A stretch of DNA of 9,649 bases from positions 1-9,649 of IMG/VR virus record IMGVR_UViG_3300014893_000026; one strand, 5' to 3'. Positions 1 through 6,481 of the stretch are shown piece by piece. Position numbers and translations under genes: made by a program. The DNA is from a virus (Duplodnaviria; Heunggongvirae; Uroviricota; Caudoviricetes). The notes under the pieces are model-generated. The model was not told where the DNA came from, searched no databases, and worked only from the letters and a program-made list of their open reading frames with translations. Each line of letters starts with the position of its first letter. Positions within the stretch are counted from its first letter, which is position 1.

Positions 1-178
1 CACGCTGACGCTGCTGCATGTCAGCGATGGTGGCGATCGCCTGCTTCAGCTCACTGACTTTTTTATCACGCTGTTCTTTGTAGGCGATGGCGTTATCACG
101 GTAATGATTCAGCCCCAGACTAAGCGCACCACAGGCCACCAGCAGGGCAATGATGACCACGCACAGTACGCGGTTCAT
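1..178 (-). CDS. Rz-like i-spanin, N-terminal portion (gene continues past window start)
   Basis: Reverse complement of 1-178 translates from ATG (176-178) as MNRVLCVVIIALLVACGALSLGLNHYRDNAIAYKEQRDKKVSELKQAIATIADMQQRQR: an N-terminal membrane anchor followed by the NHYRDNAI-YK-QRDK motif recalled from lambda Rz. Sits downstream of the endolysin. Absent from the ORF track because no stop codon falls inside the window. Confidence 0.8.
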   Translation of the reverse strand, partial: MNRVLCVVIIALLVACGALSLGLNHYRDNAIAYKEQRDKKVSELKQAIATIADMQQRQR

Positions 179-179
179 T

Positions 180-278
180 TCACCACCAGCGTATCTGACC
201 GATGAAATAACCGGAGGCCATAATCACAAACACCAGCCAGATAAGAATGAACTTCCAGGTGGATAATTTTTCAGCCAT
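180..278 (-). CDS. Hypothetical 32-aa single-TM peptide, stop 1 nt before the Rz ATG
   Basis: Minus-strand ATG at 276-278, translation MAEKLSTWKFILIWLVFVIMASGYFIGQIRWW, stop TGA at 180-182. GGGAG lies about 8 nt upstream of the ATG. Not in the ORF track (below length cutoff). Could also be a remnant N-terminus of an alternative spanin. Confidence 0.35.
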   Translation of the reverse strand: MAEKLSTWKFILIWLVFVIMASGYFIGQIRWW

Positions 279-353
279 CACTCGAATCTCCCGAATCAGT
301 TTGCTAAAATCAAACACACTTTCTCCTTTGACTTTTCCGGAGTCAGGAAACAC

Positions 354-388
354 AAAACCCCGCTTGGTGCCAACAAACGGGGTTTTTA
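354..388. terminator. Terminator-like GC-rich hairpin flanked by A-run and T-run (bidirectional), between endolysin and Rz
   Basis: AAAACCCCG (354-362) and CGGGGTTTT (378-386) are reverse complements around a 15-nt loop. On the minus strand the hairpin is followed by TTTTGTGTTT. Confidence 0.5.
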
Positions 389-476
389 CTTTTATTCACT
401 TACGTTTCGCCAGTTCGCAGGATTTCGTGTTATCCGCCCGCGTGGCCATACCTTATTTTTCAGCAAAATATTCTGC

Positions 477-1010
477 TTATCTGTCGATTCCCCAGCACGC
501 CAGCGCGCTCTCCTGGTCACGACGGGATACCTGACCGTAGCAGTTGTTTGAACGAATACGGCAGTCTCTGCCACCGTCCTTAATCCACCAGCGAATCGCC
601 TCACACGCTCCCCTGCGATCACCTGCATTAATTCGTTTATAAAACGTCGACGGGAAACACTTACCGGGACCAATGTTGTACGGACAGAATGACGCGATCC
701 CCGCTTTCTGGGGTTCACTCAATGGCACTCTGATGTTTTTCTCCACCCATGCCAGCGCCTCATCACGCTCAATGGCGTTAACCCGGTCGCATTTTTCCTT
801 CGACAACTTCATGCCCGGAACGACAGGTTTGCCATCCACCAGGATGGCACCGCGGCAGATGGTCCAGATACCCGCACCATCACGGTATGCCGTGGTGTGG
901 TTACCTTCCTTTTCATCCAGAAACTGGTCGAGAATGTCAGGCGCAGGCGCACCAGCGGCAATCAGCGCCAGAACGGCAGCCGACAGGCCGTATCTGATTT
1001 TTGCGTTCAT
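477..1010 (-). CDS. rrrQ: Phage lysozyme (T4-lysozyme-like / GH24 endolysin) with N-terminal SAR-like hydrophobic segment
   Basis: 177-aa ORF with ATG at 1008-1010. N-terminal YGLSAAVLALIAAGA segment, then E-x8-D-x5-T catalytic spacing (EGNHTTAYRDGAGIWT) typical of T4-type lysozymes. Position in lysis cassette after the holin. Symbol recalled from K-12 Qin RrrQ (same length); unverified. Confidence 0.88.
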   Translation of the reverse strand: MNAKIRYGLSAAVLALIAAGAPAPDILDQFLDEKEGNHTTAYRDGAGIWTICRGAILVDGKPVVPGMKLSKEKCDRVNAIERDEALAWVEKNIRVPLSEPQKAGIASFCPYNIGPGKCFPSTFYKRINAGDRRGACEAIRWWIKDGGRDCRIRSNNCYGQVSRRDQESALACWGIDR

Positions 1011-1115
1011 GGATATTTATCAGGATTTATCGGTTTCTGAGCCCTGGATATGTTTATCAGTTCCAGCCTGTTGCCTCAGGCTGCTAACAGGTCAATACAA
1101 TCATGAGGATTATTT

Positions 1116-1388
1116 ATGGACAATAACACCATTTCTCTACAGGAGTTGCTCGACAGCATTTCCAGGCTTCGGGAAGACGTGAATACCCTTACCGTCGCCT
1201 TCTCATATCTGGCATTCTCAATTCCAAGGGAACAGATGCAATCAACGCTGGCATCAATCCAGTTTGAATCATGCAATCCCAAATGGTCTCAGGAACAACA
1301 AGACTCTTTCAGGCGGCTTGCTGTATTACTGGATGAAAAATATGCTGGTAAAATTACCATTTCGGCGGACTCTTCAGAGAACCCGTAA
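1116..1388 (+). CDS. Hypothetical 90-aa protein, antisense to the lysis operon
   Basis: ATG at 1116 preceded by GAGGA with 6-nt spacing (tgaGGAttatttATG). Fills most of an otherwise empty ~340-bp gap between the DUF1327 gene and the endolysin. 3' end overlaps the DUF1327 gene 3' end by 35 bp (convergent). No family recognised. Confidence 0.4.
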   Translation: MDNNTISLQELLDSISRLREDVNTLTVAFSYLAFSIPREQMQSTLASIQFESCNPKWSQEQQDSFRRLAVLLDEKYAGKITISADSSENP

Positions 1389-1698
1389 TTATTCCCGGTA
1401 GTTTTCCTCTGTAGGTTATCAACACATCCTGCGCCTCTAAAATTACGGGGCGCTTTTCCGGCGACTGCTCATCCCCTTCACATAACCCGGCAGCAACATC
1501 CAGGAAGACCTGTCTGATGCTCCTTCTGGCTGCTGCCTCATAAAACTCCAGCGCGGCACCTTCAACACGGTCCAGCGAGATGTCCAGGTCAAAAATTTCA
1601 CCGTCAAAGCGTTTTTTGTCCCTTAATGCTACAGTTACCGCAACTTTATTCTCAAAATTGCGGATCCCTTTCACAATCAGTTCATAGTTTTGTGTCAT
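1354..1698 (-). CDS. ydfR: DUF1327-family phage protein (YdfR-like)
   Basis: ORF-track entry 1354..1719 begins at a TTG; the likely true start is ATG 1696-1698 (MTQNYELIVKGIRNFENK...), preceded by GGGGAGAG. Lies between holin and endolysin as in K-12 Qin (essQ-ydfR-rrrQ). Family and symbol are from memory. Confidence 0.75.
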   Translation of the reverse strand: MTQNYELIVKGIRNFENKVAVTVALRDKKRFDGEIFDLDISLDRVEGAALEFYEAAARRSIRQVFLDVAAGLCEGDEQSPEKRPVILEAQDVLITYRGKLPGIITGSLKSPPKW

Positions 1699-1702
1699 TG
1701 AA

Positions 1703-1918
1703 TTACTCTCCCCGTGCAACCTTACGCTTGTCTTCTTTAATCTTGAAATAAAGGTTTGTCAGGTACGTCAGCAAGCCAAATACCAGACTACCCAGCACAC
1801 CGATTGCAGCCCACTGTGACGGAGTTACTTTATCGAGTAACTGCAATGCCCAGAAACCAGCATTACCAGCCGATGTGCCATAGGCGATACCTGTTGTTAA
1901 CTTATCCATTGATTTCAT
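1703..1918 (-). CDS. essQ: Phage 21-type class II holin (pinholin)
   Basis: 71 aa, [71 protein letters not shown]: two hydrophobic segments and a basic C-terminus, the S21/EssD/EssQ pattern. ATG at 1916-1918. Confidence 0.9.
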
Positions 1919-2136
1919 ATCCTCACCCCGATGTACACAGATGGTGCAATATGTTTGAAAAGATCGGAGTCTATGGGGTAGTTTTTATAGCAAACGTTGT
2001 TCTCAACGGCGCTAAAAAACAGACACATTAAAAATGTGGGTAATTATTTTAAAAGAAAATCATATATTAAATAATAATACGAGATATGTTTTCATATTTA
2101 GTGTACTGTATACGGCCATTTATACAGGAAAAGCCT

Positions 2137-2307
2137 ATGTCAGAACGTAAAGACTCAAAATCACGCCGTAATTATCTCGTTAAATGTTCCTGCCCAAACT
2201 GCACCCAAGAGTCAGAACACAGTTTTTCAAGAATACAAAAAGGTGCCCTTTTGATCTGCCCTCATTGCAACAAAGTATTCCAGACAAATCTTAAAGCTGT
2301 AGCTTGA
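2137..2307 (+). CDS. Small zinc-ribbon protein (56 aa; two CxxC pairs)
   Basis: ORF-track entry 2086..2307; the likely start is ATG 2137 (MSERKDSKSRRNYLVKCSCPNCTQESEHSFSRIQKGALLICPHCNKVFQTNLKAVA), preceded by AGGAAA at 7-nt spacing. CPNC...CPHC suggests a Zn ribbon. Possibly the K-12 Qin small protein YnfU; that name is from uncertain memory and is not asserted. Confidence 0.65.
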   Translation: MSERKDSKSRRNYLVKCSCPNCTQESEHSFSRIQKGALLICPHCNKVFQTNLKAVA

Positions 2308-2363
2308 TTGATTTTATTCGTAACAAGTATTTTTTATATTTTAATAACATATTTAAAGCAGAT

Positions 2364-2395
2364 AATAAAAAACCCGCCTGAGCGGGTTTAATATT
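2364..2395. terminator. Bidirectional rho-independent terminator between the zinc-ribbon gene (+) and cspB (-)
   Basis: AAAAAACCCGC-ctga-GCGGGTTT (stem 2373-2377 / 2382-2386). The minus strand has the stronger U-run (GCGGGTTTTTTATTATC). Confidence 0.6.
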
Positions 2396-2670
2396 GTGGT
2401 ACTTTTTGTGGGAGTCATCCACTTACGCACTTTGTTTTGCTATGCCAGCAGTTAGCTTCTGCTGTAAAACTATTCATGCAGCAAACCTGCACTTCACCAC
2501 AATGGTTAGCATACTTTTCCTGATTAAGTTATTGCCAAATATGCTGGCCATTGTTTCATGTATTGGACCTCCTTACTATTTATTAAAGAGATCCAATATT
2601 CACCACTCTGTCTGTATCTCCACTCAGGCATCAGCCTTCTTCGTTATCGTATACAGACAAACTATGAATT

Positions 2671-2886
2671 TTAATCAGTAATTATGACATTTGCTGCTGC
2701 AGGACCTTTAGCACCACTCTCTACAGAGAAGGTAACCTTTTGACCTTCAAATAAGGTTCGATAATTATCATTCTGAATCGCAGAAAAATGCACAAACACA
2801 TCTTTACTACCATCAACAGGAGAAATAAAGCCAAAACCTTTATCAGCGTTAAACCATTTTACTAAACCAGTCATTTTATTTGACAT
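2671..2886 (-). CDS. cspB: Cold-shock protein, CspA family
   Basis: 71 aa, [71 protein letters not shown], with RNP1-like KGFGFI and RNP2-like VFVHF motifs. Near-identical to my recollection of E. coli CspB. AAGGA 7 nt upstream of the ATG. Confidence 0.93.
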
Positions 2887-2941
2887 TCTACATTCCTTAA
2901 CTTGAGCCTTTCGGCATAAATGGCTTGTATAACAGAAACGA

Positions 2942-3100
2942 CTTCGTACTTAATTGGAGAGACTCAAAGAAGGAATAAGTGAATAACACCTGAAATGAGA
3001 ACTGCTTTAGTAAACTACTTCGTACTTAATTGGAGAGACTCAAAGAAGGAATAAGTGAATAACACCTGAAATGAGAACTGCTTTAGTAAACTACTTCGTA
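2942..3100. repeat. Perfect 76-bp tandem duplication (two full copies plus 7 bp of a third) in the cspB-cspF divergent intergenic region
   Basis: 2942-3017 and 3018-3093 are identical base for base (cttcgtacttaattggagagactcaaagaaggaataagtgaataacacctgaaatgagaactgctttagtaaacta); 3094-3100 restarts the unit (cttcgta) before diverging. Confidence 0.9.
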
Positions 3101-3262
3101 TATCGTCTGTTCTTCAAACCGACGCAATCATTAACGCATAGTTGAACATATGAAGCAATGTTTATTTTAGACATCCAGCCATCTTCAACCCCATCAAAAA
3201 ACTATAGCTTTCTTCAGGAACGTGTGTATAGTGCGCCAAGTTATCAGTATTAAGGAATTTTT

Positions 3263-3475
3263 TTGTCCCGTAAAATGACAGGAATTCTCAAAACCTTTGA
3301 CGGCAAAAGCGGCAAAGGTCTTATAACCCCATCCGATGGTCGTATCGATGTCCAGCTTCATGTTTCAGCGCTCAATCTCCGCGATGCAGAAGAAATTACC
3401 ACCGGATTACGCGTGGAATTTTGCCGGATAAATGGTCTGCGTGGACCATCAGCTGCCAATGTTTACCTTTCATGA
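3263..3475 (+). CDS. cspF: Cold-shock-domain protein, CspA family (CspF-like)
   Basis: 70 aa, [70 protein letters not shown]. The conserved MS-x-KMTG N-terminus implies a TTG start at 3263 (AAGGA 6 nt upstream); ATG 3275 is the alternative. Divergent from cspB as in K-12 Qin. Confidence 0.85.
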
Positions 3476-3529
3476 GCTATATTAAAGCTTTAACTTCAAG
3501 TCCCATCGAATCAAACATGGAGAGTTTTC

Positions 3530-3619
3530 ATGAATAAACCCGTCTGTCTTGATGACTGGTTGATTGGCTTTAAAAGCTTATGCTGTACTTTGACCTTAAT
3601 AGCTCTGCTAATAATGTAA
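3530..3619 (+). CDS. Hypothetical 29-aa peptide downstream of cspF
   Basis: ATG 3530-3532 preceded by GGAGAG at 5-nt spacing; translation [29 protein letters not shown], stop TAA 3617-3619. Hydrophobic C-terminal half. Below the ORF-track cutoff. No terminator between cspF and this ORF; the first hairpin is at 3766-3791. Confidence 0.3.
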
Positions 3620-3897: not shown

Positions 3898-4650
3898 TTA
3901 TCTCGTCACCTTTCTCAATTGTGCTTCAGCGTAAGATTCCTCCTGCCAGCACTTTGTAACCAGTTTATCAATGACATTTGCATATCCTTTATACCACTGA
4001 TAATCACTCAGGTCCGGTACCAGCTTCTGGACATGATGCCGCGCCAGTGTGGTTGGTAAACGACTAAACCGTTTTCCATTGCAACGCCCACAAATCTTAT
4101 AAACAGGTGTGCCATGAAGCCGGGTCCTTTTTTCATCCAGGACAATACCTTTACCCTTACACCCTCTGCACGCTGTGCTGACTTCTCCCTTACCATGGCA
4201 ATGCTGACATAGTTCCTTCACCCACTCTTCTTTGATAACAGATTCCCCGCTTCTGGAGTGTTTCACCACTTCGCGCAATACATTATGAAATCCAGTACCA
4301 GCACAATGCTCACAACGAGCCTTACTTGCCGCAGACCTGGAATAATCAGCAAAGGCAAAATTCACAAGGTAAGGAATAATCTGTAGCCGGGTTTCTTCAC
4401 TCAATTTATTCAATGTCGGGTTATCCAGTGCCATCGCGTAATTGAGCAGACCTTCAATCGCAAACTGAGGATCCTGAACACCAACTTTTGCCAGGAATAA
4501 GGCAAACCCAAGCGGTGCTTTCGACTGCACCATCCCCTGCGCAGCCATCACATCCGTAATCGTTAAACCACCAGAGCCTGTCGCCGGTGCGTCATCACTC
4601 AATTTTGGAGATTTTGGGGAGTAATATTTTGGTAAGGCTTCAAGGTTCAT
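3898..4650 (-). CDS. quuQ: Late-gene antiterminator Q
   Basis: 250 aa with Cys/His clusters (CEHCAGTG, CQHCHGKG, CRGCKGKG, CGRCNGKR), directly upstream of PR'/tR'. Length and N-terminus (MNLEALPKYYSPKSPK...) match my recollection of K-12 QuuQ (YdfT). GGAGA 6 nt upstream of the ATG. Confidence 0.88.
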   Translation of the reverse strand: MNLEALPKYYSPKSPKLSDDAPATGSGGLTITDVMAAQGMVQSKAPLGFALFLAKVGVQDPQFAIEGLLNYAMALDNPTLNKLSEETRLQIIPYLVNFAFADYSRSAASKARCEHCAGTGFHNVLREVVKHSRSGESVIKEEWVKELCQHCHGKGEVSTACRGCKGKGIVLDEKRTRLHGTPVYKICGRCNGKRFSRLPTTLARHHVQKLVPDLSDYQWYKGYANVIDKLVTKCWQEESYAEAQLRKVTR

Positions 4651-4677
4651 GCTCGTTCTCCACTTACGCCAGTACGC

Positions 4678-5664
4678 CTATNNNNNNNNNNGCGCACGAT
4701 CGATAAAACGAAATATCAGCTCCAGCTGGGAGCCATACTTCTCTTCAAATGCCACGGTATCCGCATGCAGCTCGTCGTGATGCTTTCTGCACAAAGGCAA
4801 CACAAAAAGGTCATGCGCTTTTGTTCCCATTCCACCCTGACCGTGACCTGTCAGGTGGTGGGGATCATCTGCGGGCTTTCCACAACATGCACACTGCTGT
4901 GTCTTAACCCAGCGCGTGTACTTTTCATTAACCCAGCGGCGACGTTTTGGGCGTAACATAAAAGACTCCGGCGACTCCGGATCCACTTTCAGCGCCAGCA
5001 CCTTTTTCGCCTTATCCTGGATGATGCTGGTGGCAGGAACCGAAGGCACAAGGTCACTTTCCCGGGTGACAGACGGCACAACAGGCTTCGGTAATCTCAG
5101 TGCCTTACGGGCTGCGCTTTCCGGTAAGGCATCCGCCAGGTCATTACGAATCAGCCACCAGCACAGTTCCGGCATTGTCACAACGTGACTGTCATCAAAA
5201 CCGAGATCCCGACGCACAACAGACAACACCCAGCGGGCACAGTTATCCGTTGCCATTAATTCCAGCCGTTCCGTGAACTGATCGCGCAGCTGGTTATCAC
5301 AGTGCCAGCACAGACGGATTGCACCCGGCGCGTGTCGCATTGTGGTCATGTTCTCGCTGTGCCAGTCGGAATGAGGCCACTGGCAGCCTTTTTCACGAAG
5401 TAACCAGCTTTCAAGACATTCCACGCCACCAGCACGACGGATCACTGCCTCATTGCGGAACACGGCCCGAACGGCAGGATCATCCGCCAGCGGTTGTGAT
5501 ACCGCCGGAACGGCACCACTGGCGAAAGATGAATAACGTTCCGGCTCAGGCTCCAGCAGGACACGCCCCTGCATAAACAGGGGCATCAGTTCTGAACCTG
5601 GTCTGAACAATACGATCCCCATACGCGGGGCAATTTCAGGGGTCAGTAGTGCTCTCACGGTCAC
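4678..5664 (-). CDS. DUF968-like protein with C-terminal Cys/His-rich HNH-like motif (YdfU-like); 3' end interrupted by an assembly gap
   Basis: 328-codon ORF; C-terminal CACCGKP...HHLTGHG...CRKHHDELH resembles an HNH/zinc-binding module. Position after Q matches K-12 Qin ydfU (from memory). The last codons span the N-run 4682-4691, so the true C-terminus and stop are uncertain. Start is GTG 5662-5664 or the next GTG (5656-5658); GAGG is upstream. Confidence 0.65.
   Translation of the reverse strand: MTVRALLTPEIAPRMGIVLFRPGSELMPLFMQGRVLLEPEPERYSSFASGAVPAVSQPLADDPAVRAVFRNEAVIRRAGGVECLESWLLREKGCQWPHSDWHSENMTTMRHAPGAIRLCWHCDNQLRDQFTERLELMATDNCARWVLSVVRRDLGFDDSHVVTMPELCWWLIRNDLADALPESAARKALRLPKPVVPSVTRESDLVPSVPATSIIQDKAKKVLALKVDPESPESFMLRPKRRRWVNEKYTRWVKTQQCACCGKPADDPHHLTGHGQGGMGTKAHDLFVLPLCRKHHDELHADTVAFEEKYGSQLELIFRFIDRAXXXX
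4682..4691. other. Assembly gap (10 N)
   Basis: Run of 10 ambiguous bases between the DUF968 gene 3' end and the Q start codon. Confidence 0.99.
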
Positions 5665-5665
5665 C

Positions 5666-6481
5666 TCAATGAACGGTATCGAGCAGCTTTAACAGCTCAG
5701 GGAATCGGGATTCGAAGAAATGCGGCTGCGTCTCGCGCGGATTTGCAGGACTGGTGATGTTCTTGCCGAACATGCAGCCTTTCGCGGTCAGCGACCAGAA
5801 TTTTTTGATGTTGTTAATCGCGGTACGACTGTATCGTTCGCGTTGTTCAACGATCCCCAGCTTCGCCATCTGGTGATATGCCTGATTAGCCGTCAGGCGG
5901 ATACCATACTGCTTCAGCAGTGCACTCAGCGACAGCGTAGGGCGGCTTGAACCATCTGGCGCATCAGCAGGTGCATCAATGGCATAGATCGGCATAAGTT
6001 CAGGAAGACCAGCTACCTTTGATAATTTCTGGTATGCACCAAGTTTCGAGGAGTTTGACAGATTTAGAGTCTTTGCTGCTGATTCAAGCAGAATGACCCC
6101 GGATTTAATTTTGTCAGATGTGGTTTCTTCTGGTGATGAATTATGAAGCGCATCAAAAGTACGTATCACTTTTAAGCTGAATGCCGGGCTGATCCACATT
6201 GCATATGCATAGACCAGCTCTTTACAGACATACGTCCCACCATTGCGCCCCTGAATGGTGATGACAGGAATACTACGGGAATCTCCCGTAGTTTCTTCTT
6301 CCAATAATTCCACAAGAGCCTTCGTTTCAGGACGACGCATAAACTCGTGAACTTCCAGCGAACGGGAGGAGCGATTCTCACCAGCGGCAAGAAGAGCAGC
6401 TTTCTGAAGGTCGTTAAGACAGTAGTTAGATTCGAAGTACTGGCGCACAGAAACGCCATCAATTACAAGCAACTGATTCAT
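5666..6481 (-). CDS. KilA-N domain protein (Roi/antirepressor-like)
   Basis: ORF-track entry 5666..6493 starts at GTG; the likely start is ATG 6479-6481 (MNQLLVIDGVSVRQ...) with GGAGA 6 nt upstream. The N-terminal ~100 aa (GTYVCKELVYAYAMWISPAFSLKVIRTF) resemble the KilA-N DNA-binding domain. Stop is 1 nt from the DUF968 gene start. Confidence 0.78.
   Translation of the reverse strand: MNQLLVIDGVSVRQYFESNYCLNDLQKAALLAAGENRSSRSLEVHEFMRRPETKALVELLEEETTGDSRSIPVITIQGRNGGTYVCKELVYAYAMWISPAFSLKVIRTFDALHNSSPEETTSDKIKSGVILLESAAKTLNLSNSSKLGAYQKLSKVAGLPELMPIYAIDAPADAPDGSSRPTLSLSALLKQYGIRLTANQAYHQMAKLGIVEQRERYSRTAINNIKKFWSLTAKGCMFGKNITSPANPRETQPHFFESRFPELLKLLDTVH

What the first reader, a model, noticed from the sequence alone, without database searches (positions are those of the whole stretch)
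1116..1388. Antisense 90-aa ORF with a strong RBS embedded in the lysis operon
The holin/DUF1327 to endolysin interval has an unusual ~340-bp gap on the operon strand. Most of it is occupied on the opposite strand by an ATG-initiated 90-aa ORF with a GAGGA Shine-Dalgarno at ideal spacing, converging on and overlapping the DUF1327 gene 3' end by 35 bp. A gene transcribed against late transcription would be a moron expressed in the lysogen; the endolysin's own RBS is weak, so antisense interplay is conceivable.
Basis: partly seen in the sequence, partly recalled or inferred. Interest (0 to 1): 0.45.

Follow-up and report, generated by a model that had tools for sequence, protein, structure and literature searches.

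The report
Opposite-strand moron gene in lysis cassette
The 90-codon backwards reading frame inside this E. coli prophage's lysis genes is a real, selected protein-coding gene already annotated as the hypothetical protein Ybl58 / phrog_2411; it is an ordinary phage add-on gene ("moron") of unknown function, sitting in a slot where related prophages carry nothing or other small backwards genes.

Summary
ORF 1116-1388(+) has an ATG start, a GAGGA Shine-Dalgarno 6 nt upstream, a 35-bp overlap with the ydfR (DUF1327) 3' end, and fills a 343-bp gap before the lysozyme gene.

It is a real gene:
- dN/dS is 0.15-0.37 across eight lineages, and variable sites concentrate at third codon positions.
- Most homologues listed keep the 90-aa length, down to about 58% identity.
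- RefSeq annotates it as a hypothetical protein, and about 21% of complete E. coli genomes carry it. UniRef names it Ybl58 and it matches phrog_2411 end to end.

It has no Pfam, NCBIfam, PADLOC or PDB relative. AlphaFold gives a soluble, acidic three-helix protein with a disordered tail, and that tail is the part overlapping ydfR.

Homologues occur without lysis genes. In Serratia and Chimaeribacter they lie between dinI and bssS. In E. coli they also lie beside iha in an IS-rich island. In Atlantibacter one lies backwards in a tail module.

The lysozyme|ydfR slot is empty in some prophages. In others it holds at least eight unrelated small opposite-strand ORFs.

So "moron" is supported by comparative evidence. 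Expression in lysogens and any antisense effect on lysis are untested, and nothing found here supports the antisense idea. Function is unknown. Interest is low to moderate.

The parts
1116..1388 (+). Ybl58-family gene (phrog_2411), 90 aa. Residues 1 to about 82 are encoded by the insert. Residues 83-90 read into the antisense of backbone ydfR codons.
   Evidence: ORF. phrog_2411 1-90/90, E=1e-58. RefSeq CDS WP_000369850.1 'hypothetical protein' at the same position in NZ_CP184007. UniRef name Ybl58. dN/dS 0.15-0.37. AF2 model pLDDT 82 with helices 8-34, 38-52 and 59-76; tail 80-90 has pLDDT <50.
1105..1109 (+). Shine-Dalgarno GAGGA, 6 nt before the ATG
   Evidence: Read directly. A purine-rich GAGGA / GAGGAG / AAGGA motif is kept at the same distance in most divergent copies, including Citrobacter and Atlantibacter.
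1071..1101 (+). Candidate sigma-70 promoter A, inside the insert: TTGCCT, 19 nt, TACAAT. The expected start near 1108 would leave almost no leader.
   Evidence: My position-weight scan ranks it 8th of 95,790 sites in the window, both strands. TACAAT / GACAAT / TATAAT is kept in E. coli copies. The tool's stricter consensus scan did not list it. Inference only.
1026..1054 (+). Candidate sigma-70 promoter B, in backbone sequence: TTTATC, 17 nt, TATGTT. The expected start near 1060 would give a ~55-nt leader.
   Evidence: Rank 63 of 95,790. T-A-T-x-x-T is invariant across seven otherwise divergent upstream regions, including copies that left the lysis cassette. It is also present at empty slots, so it is not insert-specific. 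Inference only.
1042..1056 (+). Conserved backbone 15-mer CCCTGGATATGTTTA marking the lysozyme-proximal edge of the variable slot
   Evidence: Invariant core in alignment A5. An exact-pattern scan found it in more than 120 IMG/VR stretches, most next to a lysozyme start. In those it is followed either by ydfR directly or by different + strand ORFs.
1064..1083 (+). Inverted repeat CAGCCTG-TTGCCT-CAGGCTG. It is either a hairpin in the putative 5' leader or an operator-like palindrome over the -35 of promoter A.
   Evidence: Predicted 7-bp stem, but the whole-region z-score is only -0.78. A hairpin of different sequence occupies the same position in other cassettes, with one compensatory change (CAGTG/CACTG to CAGCG/CGCTG in L101). 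Role unknown.
1431..1459 (+). Weak terminator-like hairpin on the + strand inside ydfR: GCGCCTC-N9-GGGGCGC followed by TTTTCC
   Evidence: Fold -12.3 kcal/mol, z=-1.8. It fell below the terminator scan's T-run threshold. It is kept in the iha-linked copy L089, where ydfR coding capacity is gone, with a T:G to T:A change that strengthens a stem pair. Inference only.
1354..1698 (-). ydfR (DUF1327), a late-strand gene. Its last two codons and its stop come from the insert. The overlap with the ORF is 1354-1388.
   Evidence: PF07041 E=1e-42. RefSeq 'YdfR family protein' in the same register. The C-terminus is ...SLKSPPKW* here and ...SLKTPPESQP* or ...SLKTPPLA* at empty slots.
477..1010 (-). Phage lysozyme (endolysin), the late-strand gene downstream of the slot
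   Evidence: PF00959 E=2e-23, phrog_7 endolysin. Its upstream 45 nt are the same with and without the insert.
1703..1918 (-). P21-type class II holin, first gene of the lysis cassette
   Evidence: PF04971 E=1e-33. RefSeq essD / class II holin.

Best explanation
The ORF is a true protein-coding accessory gene (a moron) of the Ybl58 / phrog_2411 family. It lies on the anti-late strand between ydfR and the lysozyme gene of a Qin/21-like lambdoid prophage.

Shown:
- It is under purifying selection as a protein.
- It is optional at this position.
- Its relatives exist as stand-alone genes in other genomic settings.
- The same slot carries other unrelated small opposite-strand ORFs in related prophages.

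Inferred:
- It is transcribed on its own, against the late operon, from a sigma-70 promoter just upstream. The two candidates are 1026-1054 and 1071-1101.
- It is translated from the GAGGA site.
- Transcription ends at a weak hairpin inside ydfR (1431-1459).
- It would therefore be made in the lysogen, when the Q-dependent late operon is silent.

The product is a soluble, acidic (pI 4.5), 10-kDa three-helix protein with no membrane segment. It most likely acts by binding another protein, either to change host physiology or to interfere with incoming phages. Which partner it binds is unknown.

The 35-bp overlap with ydfR is a by-product of where the insert joined the backbone. It is not a regulatory device.
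For: Coding and selection:
- dN/dS 0.15-0.37, with a third-position excess (69 vs 38/34).
- pN/pS is above 1.1 in four of the five other frames. The symmetric antisense frame gives the same ratio but carries a stop codon in the window.
- Most homologues listed are 90 aa and align without indels, down to about 58% identity.
- Full-length PHROG match.
- RefSeq CDS in every locus inspected.
- 1152 of 5426 complete E. coli genomes carry >=80% of it.
- It is carried by three deposited phages, including an Stx2k phage.

Optional and exchangeable:
- No insert in L002, and an empty slot in 20 IMG/VR loci.
- Unrelated + strand ORFs in the same slot: phrog_2572, 21218, 18136, 1853, 10490, DUF1883/phrog_9211, a phrog_1025-like ORF and a 233-aa ORF.

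Independent of lysis genes:
- Serratia and Chimaeribacter chromosomes carry a homologue in the order pyrC-dinI-X-bssS-solA, separated from dinI and bssS by intergenic spacers of about 130-230 nt. A terminator-like hairpin lies on each side in L096 and L103, read by eye.
- E. coli copies lie beside iha or an autotransporter in IS-rich islands. There no lysozyme or YdfR coding capacity is left, but the ORF is intact with dN/dS of about 0.2-0.3.
- Atlantibacter carries a copy backwards between tail genes L and M.

Protein:
- AF2 pLDDT 82, three helices, disordered tail 80-90.
- pI 4.5, GRAVY -0.43, highest 19-residue Kyte-Doolittle hydropathy 0.75.

Overlap as junction artefact:
- Similarity to empty-slot backbones resumes at about 1364.
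- Codons 80-90 show no codon-position bias (9/9/11 variable sites).
- The tail varies or is cut short in other contexts.
Against: - No transcript, transcription start or protein evidence was available.
- Both promoters are consensus-level guesses. One has a 19-nt spacer and would start inside the Shine-Dalgarno. The other has a 3/6 -35 and is also present at empty slots.
- The terminator hairpin has only four U and failed the scan threshold.
- Base composition does not mark the ORF as foreign.
- Frameshifted, truncated and IS-cut copies exist (P0061, P0029, L090), so the gene is dispensable.
Confidence: 0.72

Rival explanations
1. The gene works together with YdfR as a convergent pair, for example by modulating YdfR. 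YdfR was recently reported to bind the RNase E catalytic domain and possibly RNA. On this view the gene is a lysis-cassette or late-phase accessory rather than a lysogenic-conversion gene.
For: - In E. coli the ORF always abuts and overlaps the ydfR 3' end.
- In Citrobacter, within a different lysis cassette (S-type holin, CHAP endolysin), it again converges on a 238-aa gene ending ...EKITGSLRVPMKL. By eye that resembles the YdfR C-terminus, but the protein has no DUF1327 Pfam hit.
- In the Atlantibacter tail module it converges on a 71-aa ORF ending ...GDLKKPPSY.
- YdfR-RNase E binding and co-purification of RNA are reported in PMC13232886.
Against: - The Serratia, Chimaeribacter and Sodalis copies and the iha-linked copies have no ydfR-like neighbour.
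- YdfR occurs widely without it. About 4300 genomes match the ydfR/holin region, against about 1150 with the ORF.
- Other unrelated ORFs occupy the same position next to ydfR.
- The YdfR-like tails next to displaced copies can be leftover flank carried along with the fragment.
Confidence: 0.12
2. The main function is at the RNA level. The + strand transcript acts as a cis-antisense RNA against the late mRNA (ydfR 3' end and the ydfR-lysozyme spacer) and tunes endolysin expression or lysis timing.
For: - Convergent arrangement with a 35-bp overlap.
- The lysozyme has no clear Shine-Dalgarno.
- Every occupant of the slot examined has its first ORF on the + strand. Transcription against the late operon is therefore a shared feature of the slot.
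Against: - The sequence evolves as a protein, with third-position excess and dN/dS of about 0.2.
- The gene persists where there is no late mRNA to pair with.
- The lysozyme upstream region is the same with and without the insert.
- Neither candidate start site would make RNA complementary to the lysozyme ribosome-binding region.
- No Rfam family matches here, and fold z-scores are unremarkable.
Confidence: 0.06
3. The ORF is a non-functional frame that annotation pipelines propagate. The apparent conservation reflects recent spread of one prophage segment.
For: - 514 of the matching records are >=99% identical.
- No functional annotation exists anywhere.
- Disrupted copies exist.
Against: - Lineages 12-45% divergent at the protein level keep the frame, with dS up to or beyond 1 and dN/dS of 0.15-0.37.
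- Homologues at 24-40% identity exist in Serratia, Sodalis, Chimaeribacter and Atlantibacter.
- A confident structure model was obtained from the family alignment.
Confidence: 0.03

Closest known systems
Lambdoid-phage morons: bor, lom and rexAB of lambda, iss, and the HK97/HK022 morons, as defined by Hendrix and colleagues (from my own knowledge)
   Same: - An extra gene lies between two late genes that are adjacent in related phages.
- It is oriented against late transcription, as bor/iss is just downstream of Rz. iss is present on the + strand next to Rz in locus L091.
- It has candidate promoter and terminator signals of its own.
- It survives in decayed prophage remnants.
   Different: - No function, signal peptide or lipobox.
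- The promoter, the terminator and expression in the lysogen are not demonstrated.
- Base composition is not distinct from the surroundings.
- It sits inside the lysis cassette (ydfR|R) rather than after Rz.
Cargo hotspots of temperate phages and satellites, such as the P2/P4 anti-phage hotspots (from my own knowledge)
   Same: A fixed position bounded by conserved backbone sequence (the 15-mer at 1042-1056 and the ydfR 3' end) holds many unrelated cargo genes or is empty.
   Different: - The cargo here is single ORFs, mostly about 80-105 aa (one of 233 aa).
- The three occupants scanned against PADLOC had no hit, and none of the nine scanned against Pfam had a domain of known function.
- No phenotype is known.
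PHROG phrog_2411 / UniRef 'Ybl58' / RefSeq WP_000369850.1 (hypothetical protein)
   Same: The window protein matches phrog_2411 over its whole length and sits in a UniRef cluster named Ybl58. A CDS with that RefSeq accession is annotated at the same position in NZ_CP184007.
   Different: None of these entries records a function, a genomic role or a family description. The wider family (Serratia and others) is not in Pfam or NCBIfam.
Small stress-linked host proteins next to the Serratia homologue (DinI, BssS), and small helical 'connector' regulators of enterobacteria such as AriR/YmgB and IraP (from my own knowledge)
   Same: - Size (80-100 aa) and predicted all-helical fold.
- Stand-alone monocistronic gene.
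- Chromosomal position between dinI and bssS in Serratia and Chimaeribacter.
   Different: - No sequence relationship to any Pfam family, including those of DinI, BssS, BssR and YmgB.
- Neighbourhood is not evidence of shared function.
- A LexA-box pattern lies upstream only in Chimaeribacter, not in Serratia.
Cis-antisense RNAs of temperate phages: lambda oop and the paQ transcript, P22 sar (from my own knowledge)
   Same: Transcription opposite to a phage operon, with overlap at a gene end.
   Different: The segment evolves as a protein-coding sequence and functions in settings with no partner transcript.

Membership tests
Ybl58 / phrog_2411 protein family | Full-length, significant match to the family profile | tested here: met
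   phrog_2411, residues 1-90 on profile 1-90, E=1.1e-58. The exact sequence lies in a 183-member cluster named Ybl58 in UniRef.
Genuine protein-coding gene | Purifying selection in this frame and not in others; reading frame and length kept in divergent relatives | tested here: met
   dN/dS 0.15-0.37. Variable sites 38/34/69 by codon position. Four of the five other frames have pN/pS >1.1, and the symmetric antisense frame has a stop. Most homologues listed are 90 aa.
Phage moron | Present between two genes that are adjacent in related phages | tested here: met
   No insert in L002, and an empty slot in 20 IMG/VR loci where ydfR directly follows the lysozyme upstream region.
Phage moron | Own promoter, independent of the surrounding operon | tested here: inconclusive
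   Two consensus-level candidates. Neither passes the tool's stricter scan. There are no transcription start data.
Phage moron | Own terminator | tested here: inconclusive
   A 7-bp GC-rich hairpin followed by UUUUCC at 1431-1459, below the scan threshold. The Citrobacter copy has a clearer hairpin with a U-run, z=-3.45.
Phage moron | Expressed from the repressed prophage | not testable with these tools
   No RNA-seq, Ribo-seq or proteomic data were accessible. Six literature searches (ybl58, DUF1327, a moron/lysis-cassette query, six RefSeq protein accessions, and YdfR) found no paper on this gene.
Phage moron | Base composition different from neighbouring genes | tested here: not met
   GC 0.451 and GC3 0.495, against holin 0.454, ydfR 0.478 and window 0.480. 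This feature is common in morons but not obligatory.
Cis-antisense regulatory RNA of the lysis operon | Complementarity to a regulatory part of the target (ribosome-binding region or start), and conservation independent of coding capacity | tested here: not met
   The overlap covers only the last 35 nt of ydfR. Predicted starts lie downstream of the lysozyme ribosome-binding region. Conservation follows codon structure. There is no Rfam hit.
Lysis proteins (holin, antiholin, spanin, lysis regulator) | Transmembrane segment, signal or lipobox; same strand as the late operon | tested here: not met
   Highest 19-residue Kyte-Doolittle hydropathy 0.75, GRAVY -0.43, opposite strand. No lysis-category PHROG.
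Known anti-phage defence systems (PADLOC) | Match to a defence-protein model | tested here: not met
   No PADLOC hit at E<=1 for this ORF or for two alternative slot occupants.
Cargo hotspot between conserved backbone anchors | Same flanks with several unrelated inserts and an empty state | tested here: met
   The 15-mer anchor next to the lysozyme start is followed, in different loci, by: an empty slot (20 loci); Ybl58 (about 30 loci); phrog_18136, 1853, 2572, 10490 and 21218; DUF1883; a phrog_1025-like ORF; or a 233-aa ORF. hhalign finds no clear relation between Ybl58 and four of the other occupants; the best is 25% probability with the phrog_10490-type ORF.

The most novel reading that the evidence does not exclude
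The lysozyme|ydfR junction of Qin/21-like lambdoid prophages may be a dedicated 'expression dock' on the anti-late strand. A backbone promoter (TTTATC-17-TATGTT) and a backbone hairpin inside ydfR would bracket a slot where diverse small soluble proteins are swapped by recombination. These small proteins, Ybl58 among them, would be lysogen-expressed effectors in phage-phage or phage-host conflict, for example superinfection exclusion, defence or anti-defence by binding a target. Ybl58 would have been recruited from, or donated to, a chromosomal small gene next to dinI and bssS in Serratia.
Probability: 0.25. Interest if true: 0.55.

Novelty: new member of a known kind. Interest (0 to 1): 0.3.

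Why it matters
The gene itself is not a discovery. It is already annotated as a hypothetical protein in about a fifth of complete E. coli genomes, including BL21 and ST131 strains, and in an Stx2k phage.

What this work adds:
- Evidence that it is truly coding and under selection.
- It belongs to a Pfam-less family of small three-helix proteins spread across Enterobacterales.
- It occupies a recombination hotspot inside the lysis cassette that collects unrelated small opposite-strand genes.

Slots with variable cargo in other temperate phages and satellites have yielded exclusion, defence and host-modulating functions (from my own knowledge). This one would be a cheap place to look for new small effectors. 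BL21 carries the gene, so public strand-specific RNA-seq and Ribo-seq data could settle expression almost at once.

Tried and rejected
- **Domain and family searches.** Pfam, NCBIfam and PADLOC gave nothing for the ORF. A per-member Pfam scan of 64 family members gave only scattered sub-threshold hits. A PDB profile search had a best E of 0.57.
- **Rfam.** The scan of 1-3600 found no family at the ORF or its flanks.
- **'Portable promoter' idea.** I first thought the conserved CCCTGGATATGTT element travelled with each cassette. I rejected that when empty slots turned out to carry it too. It is backbone sequence, though it could still act as a promoter.
- **Homology among slot occupants.** BLASTP found nothing. 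hhalign gave at best 25% probability, with the phrog_10490-type ORF over the N-terminal helix only. This is not enough to claim a superfamily.
- **SOS control.** The Serratia homologue sits beside dinI, so I looked for LexA boxes. A CTGT-N8-ACAG pattern lies upstream of the homologue only in Chimaeribacter, not in Serratia. Dropped.
- **Composition and GC3.**
- **Literature.** No paper mentions ybl58 or the RefSeq accessions. One hit on a Gifsy defence protein concerned an unrelated ATPase.

Full report
**1. What is in the window.**
The window is part of a Qin/21-like lambdoid prophage of E. coli with its late genes on the - strand.
- P21-type holin, 1703-1918.
- ydfR (DUF1327), 1354-1698.
- Phage lysozyme, 477-1010.
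- An Rz-like gene starting at 178 and running off the left end.
- Further right: ynfU, cspB with its cspA-type thermoregulator leader, cspF, and a 250-aa ORF at 3898-4650(-) that I take from memory to be the Qin antiterminator Q (not scanned).

The best E. coli match is 99.2% identical over 1000-1750 and has the same gene order.

**2. The observation.**
- ATG at 1116 and a stop at 1386-1388, giving 90 codons.
- GAGGA at 1105-1109, 6 nt before the ATG.
- A 343-bp gap on the late strand between ydfR and the lysozyme.
- A 35-bp convergent overlap with ydfR.

**3. Is it a gene?**
Yes, on several lines of evidence.
- The protein matches phrog_2411 over its full length, E=1e-58.
- RefSeq annotates a CDS at this position in every locus I opened.
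- The exact sequence is in a cluster that UniRef names Ybl58 and occurs on more than 1000 contigs.
- 1152 of 5426 complete E. coli genomes carry at least 80% of the ORF. These include BL21-Gold(DE3) and ST131 isolates.
- Three deposited phages carry it, one of them an Stx2k phage.

I collected 19 distinct intact DNA versions and ran Nei-Gojobori comparisons on eight lineages, using codons 1-79 so that the overlap with ydfR is excluded.
- dN/dS is 0.15-0.37 in every pair where dS could be estimated, with dS from 0.1 to above 1.
- Variable sites fall 38/34/69 on codon positions 1/2/3.
- Four of the other five frames give pN/pS above 1.1. The fifth is the antisense frame that shares third positions; it gives the same ratio by symmetry but contains a stop in the window.

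This rules out a chance frame.

**4. The family.**
Profile searches extend the family to proteins of 81-106 aa at 24-40% identity in Serratia (many species), Chimaeribacter, Sodalis, Acerihabitans, Gibbsiella, Chania, Atlantibacter and Citrobacter.
- The conserved core is ...ELL..I..LR..VN.L.VAFSYLAFS...E......L..ES.N......Q..F..LA..L.
- L32 and E51 are invariant.
- There is no Pfam, NCBIfam, PADLOC or PDB sequence relative.

With the 64-sequence alignment AlphaFold2 gives pLDDT 82. It predicts three helices (8-34, 38-52, 59-76) and a disordered tail at 80-90. The protein is acidic (pI 4.5), hydrophilic and has no membrane segment. Fold searches return only generic helical matches, so the fold says nothing specific about function.

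**5. Genomic settings.**
- In E. coli prophages the gene always lies between the lysozyme and ydfR, on the opposite strand.
- Some related prophages lack it. L002 has ydfR ending 63 nt from the lysozyme start.
- Others carry a different small + strand ORF in the same place. L003 has an 86-aa phrog_2572 ORF followed by what looks by eye like an intrinsic terminator. L004 has a 79-aa phrog_21218 ORF.
- Copies at about 57-58% protein identity to the window (72% DNA identity) lie beside iha or an autotransporter in IS-rich islands. In L089 only the ORF, about 130 nt upstream (reaching 22 nt into the former lysozyme gene) and a short downstream hairpin still resemble the prophage. No lysozyme or YdfR coding capacity remains, yet the ORF is intact and under purifying selection.
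- In Serratia and Chimaeribacter the homologue is a stand-alone chromosomal gene in the conserved order pyrC-dinI-X-bssS-solA.
- In Atlantibacter it is a backwards gene between tail genes L and M.
- In Citrobacter it is backwards next to a different type of lysis cassette.

A gene that is optional at one site, and that survives alone when its neighbours decay, fits the definition of a moron.

**6. The slot is a hotspot.**
The 15-mer CCCTGGATATGTTWA (window 1042-1056) lies about 35 nt from the lysozyme start. An exact scan of IMG/VR returned more than 120 stretches, and I examined 80 loci.
- In 20 loci the slot is empty, and the ydfR 3' end follows within 16-36 nt.
- About 30 loci hold Ybl58.
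- About 18 hold other + strand ORFs: phrog_18136 (87-91 aa), phrog_1853 (104 aa), phrog_2572 (86-93 aa), phrog_10490 (105 aa), DUF1883/phrog_9211 (89 aa), an 81-aa ORF resembling the C-terminal part of a sigma-factor PHROG, and a 233-aa ORF.
- All are of unknown function.
- In profile comparison, four of these occupants show no clear relation to Ybl58. The best is 25% probability with the phrog_10490-type ORF.

The 15-mer is therefore backbone sequence, not part of the insert. I had first read it as a portable promoter and dropped that idea.

**7. The overlap explained.**
Compared with empty slots, similarity resumes at about window 1364.
- The insert supplies the last two codons and the stop of ydfR. 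The C-terminus is ...SLKSPPKW* here, against ...PPESQP* or ...PPLA* elsewhere.
- The last 8 or so codons of the ORF are simply the antisense of backbone ydfR codons, read until the first stop.
- These residues are disordered in the model.
- They show no codon-position bias (9/9/11 variable sites).
- They differ or are missing in other settings.

The overlap needs no regulatory explanation.

**8. Expression signals (inference only).**
My weight-matrix scan gives two candidate sigma-70 promoters on the + strand.
- TTGCCT-19-TACAAT at 1071-1101 ranks 8th of 95,790 sites. Its expected start lies inside the Shine-Dalgarno.
- TTTATC-17-TATGTT at 1026-1054 ranks 63rd. Its T-A-T-x-x-T positions are invariant in all seven divergent upstream regions aligned, including displaced copies. 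It would give a ~55-nt leader containing the hairpin at 1064-1083.

The tool's stricter scan lists neither. Downstream, GCGCCTC-N9-GGGGCGC-UUUUCC (1431-1459) is a weak terminator-like hairpin. L089 keeps it, with a stem-strengthening change, although ydfR is gone there. Transcript mapping is needed to decide among these.

**9. The antisense idea.**
The lysozyme upstream region is the same with and without the insert, so its weak ribosome-binding site is not related to the ORF. Neither candidate start would produce RNA complementary to that region. The gene is kept where there is no late transcript to pair with. I rate an RNA-level role as unlikely, though not excluded.

**10. An alternative worth keeping.**
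The ORF sits next to a possibly YdfR-like 3' end in three settings: E. coli, Citrobacter (a 238-aa gene ending ...ITGSLRVPMKL, no DUF1327 Pfam hit) and Atlantibacter (a 71-aa ORF ending ...GDLKKPPSY). YdfR was recently reported to bind the RNase E catalytic domain and to co-purify with RNA (PMC13232886). A functional pairing is possible. However, the Serratia and iha-linked copies have no such neighbour, and YdfR is far more widespread than the ORF.

**11. Verdict.**
The gene is an already-annotated hypothetical protein, so novelty is limited. The useful additions are the proof of selection, the wider family, the explanation of the overlap, and the recognition of a small-gene hotspot in the lysis cassette.

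Noticed in passing
window 180-353 (-), hairpin 355-388: There is a second insertion in the lysis cassette. In L001 the lysozyme and Rz genes overlap; here they are 300 bp apart. The gap holds a hairpin with a T-run and a small ORF whose 32-aa ATG version (MAEKLSTWKFILIWLVFVIMASGYFIGQIRWW) looks like a single membrane helix. The ORF ends 1 nt before the Rz start at 178. It matches phrog_6632 (unknown function), E=1e-29.
   Followed up: partly
window 1042-1056 and IMG/VR loci L108-L187: The lysozyme|ydfR junction is a cargo hotspot. The backbone 15-mer CCCTGGATATGTTWA is followed either by ydfR directly or by at least eight unrelated + strand ORFs: phrog_2411, 2572, 21218, 18136, 1853, 10490, DUF1883/phrog_9211, a sigma-r4/LuxR-like 81-aa ORF, and a 233-aa ORF. 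YdfR-like proteins next to them vary from 114 to 268 aa at their C-termini.
   Followed up: partly
window 1011-1024 and 1046-1060: Near-direct repeat GGATATTTATCAGG / GGATATGTTTATCAG, 35 nt apart, between the lysozyme start and the insert. Its meaning is unknown. It could be a duplicated lysozyme-upstream segment or a pair of binding sites.
   Followed up: no
L096, L097, L103 (about 4600-5750): In Serratia and Chimaeribacter the Ybl58 homologue is a conserved stand-alone gene between dinI and bssS, with rne, an ABM-domain gene and pyrC upstream and solA downstream. From memory, not checked here, E. coli K-12 has dinI and bssS adjacent with nothing between them.
   Followed up: partly
L105-L107 (4176-5321) and IMG/VR slot variants: DUF1883 lies two genes upstream of a 106-aa Ybl58 homologue in an unidentified chromosome. 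DUF1883 is also one of the alternative occupants of the E. coli lysozyme|ydfR slot. These small genes may travel in the same company.
   Followed up: no
window 1354-1698 (-): [quoted passage not shown] The same paper states that the K-12 Qin lysis cluster is cold-induced (PMC13232886).
   Followed up: partly
window 2604-3035 (-): Full-length Rfam cspA thermoregulator (RF01766, 142.8 bits, E=5e-38) covering the cspB leader and gene. Cold-shock genes (cspB, cspF) and ynfU surround the lysis cassette.
   Followed up: no
window 4682-4691: A run of 10 N (masked or unresolved bases) just upstream of the 250-aa ORF at 3898-4650(-). It falls within the 3' end of the 328-aa ORF at 4678-5664(-), whose translation ends in four X.
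   Followed up: no
L090 (2501-2626); P0061, P0029: Disrupted copies of the gene exist. One is cut after about 42 codons by an IS3-family element, and others are frameshifted (one of these is still labelled ybl58). The gene is therefore dispensable in some strains.
   Followed up: partly
L103 4912-4927: A CTGT-N8-ACAG (LexA-box-like) pattern lies about 75 nt upstream of the Chimaeribacter homologue, in addition to the expected box before dinI. It is absent from the Serratia loci, so it is probably chance.
   Followed up: partly
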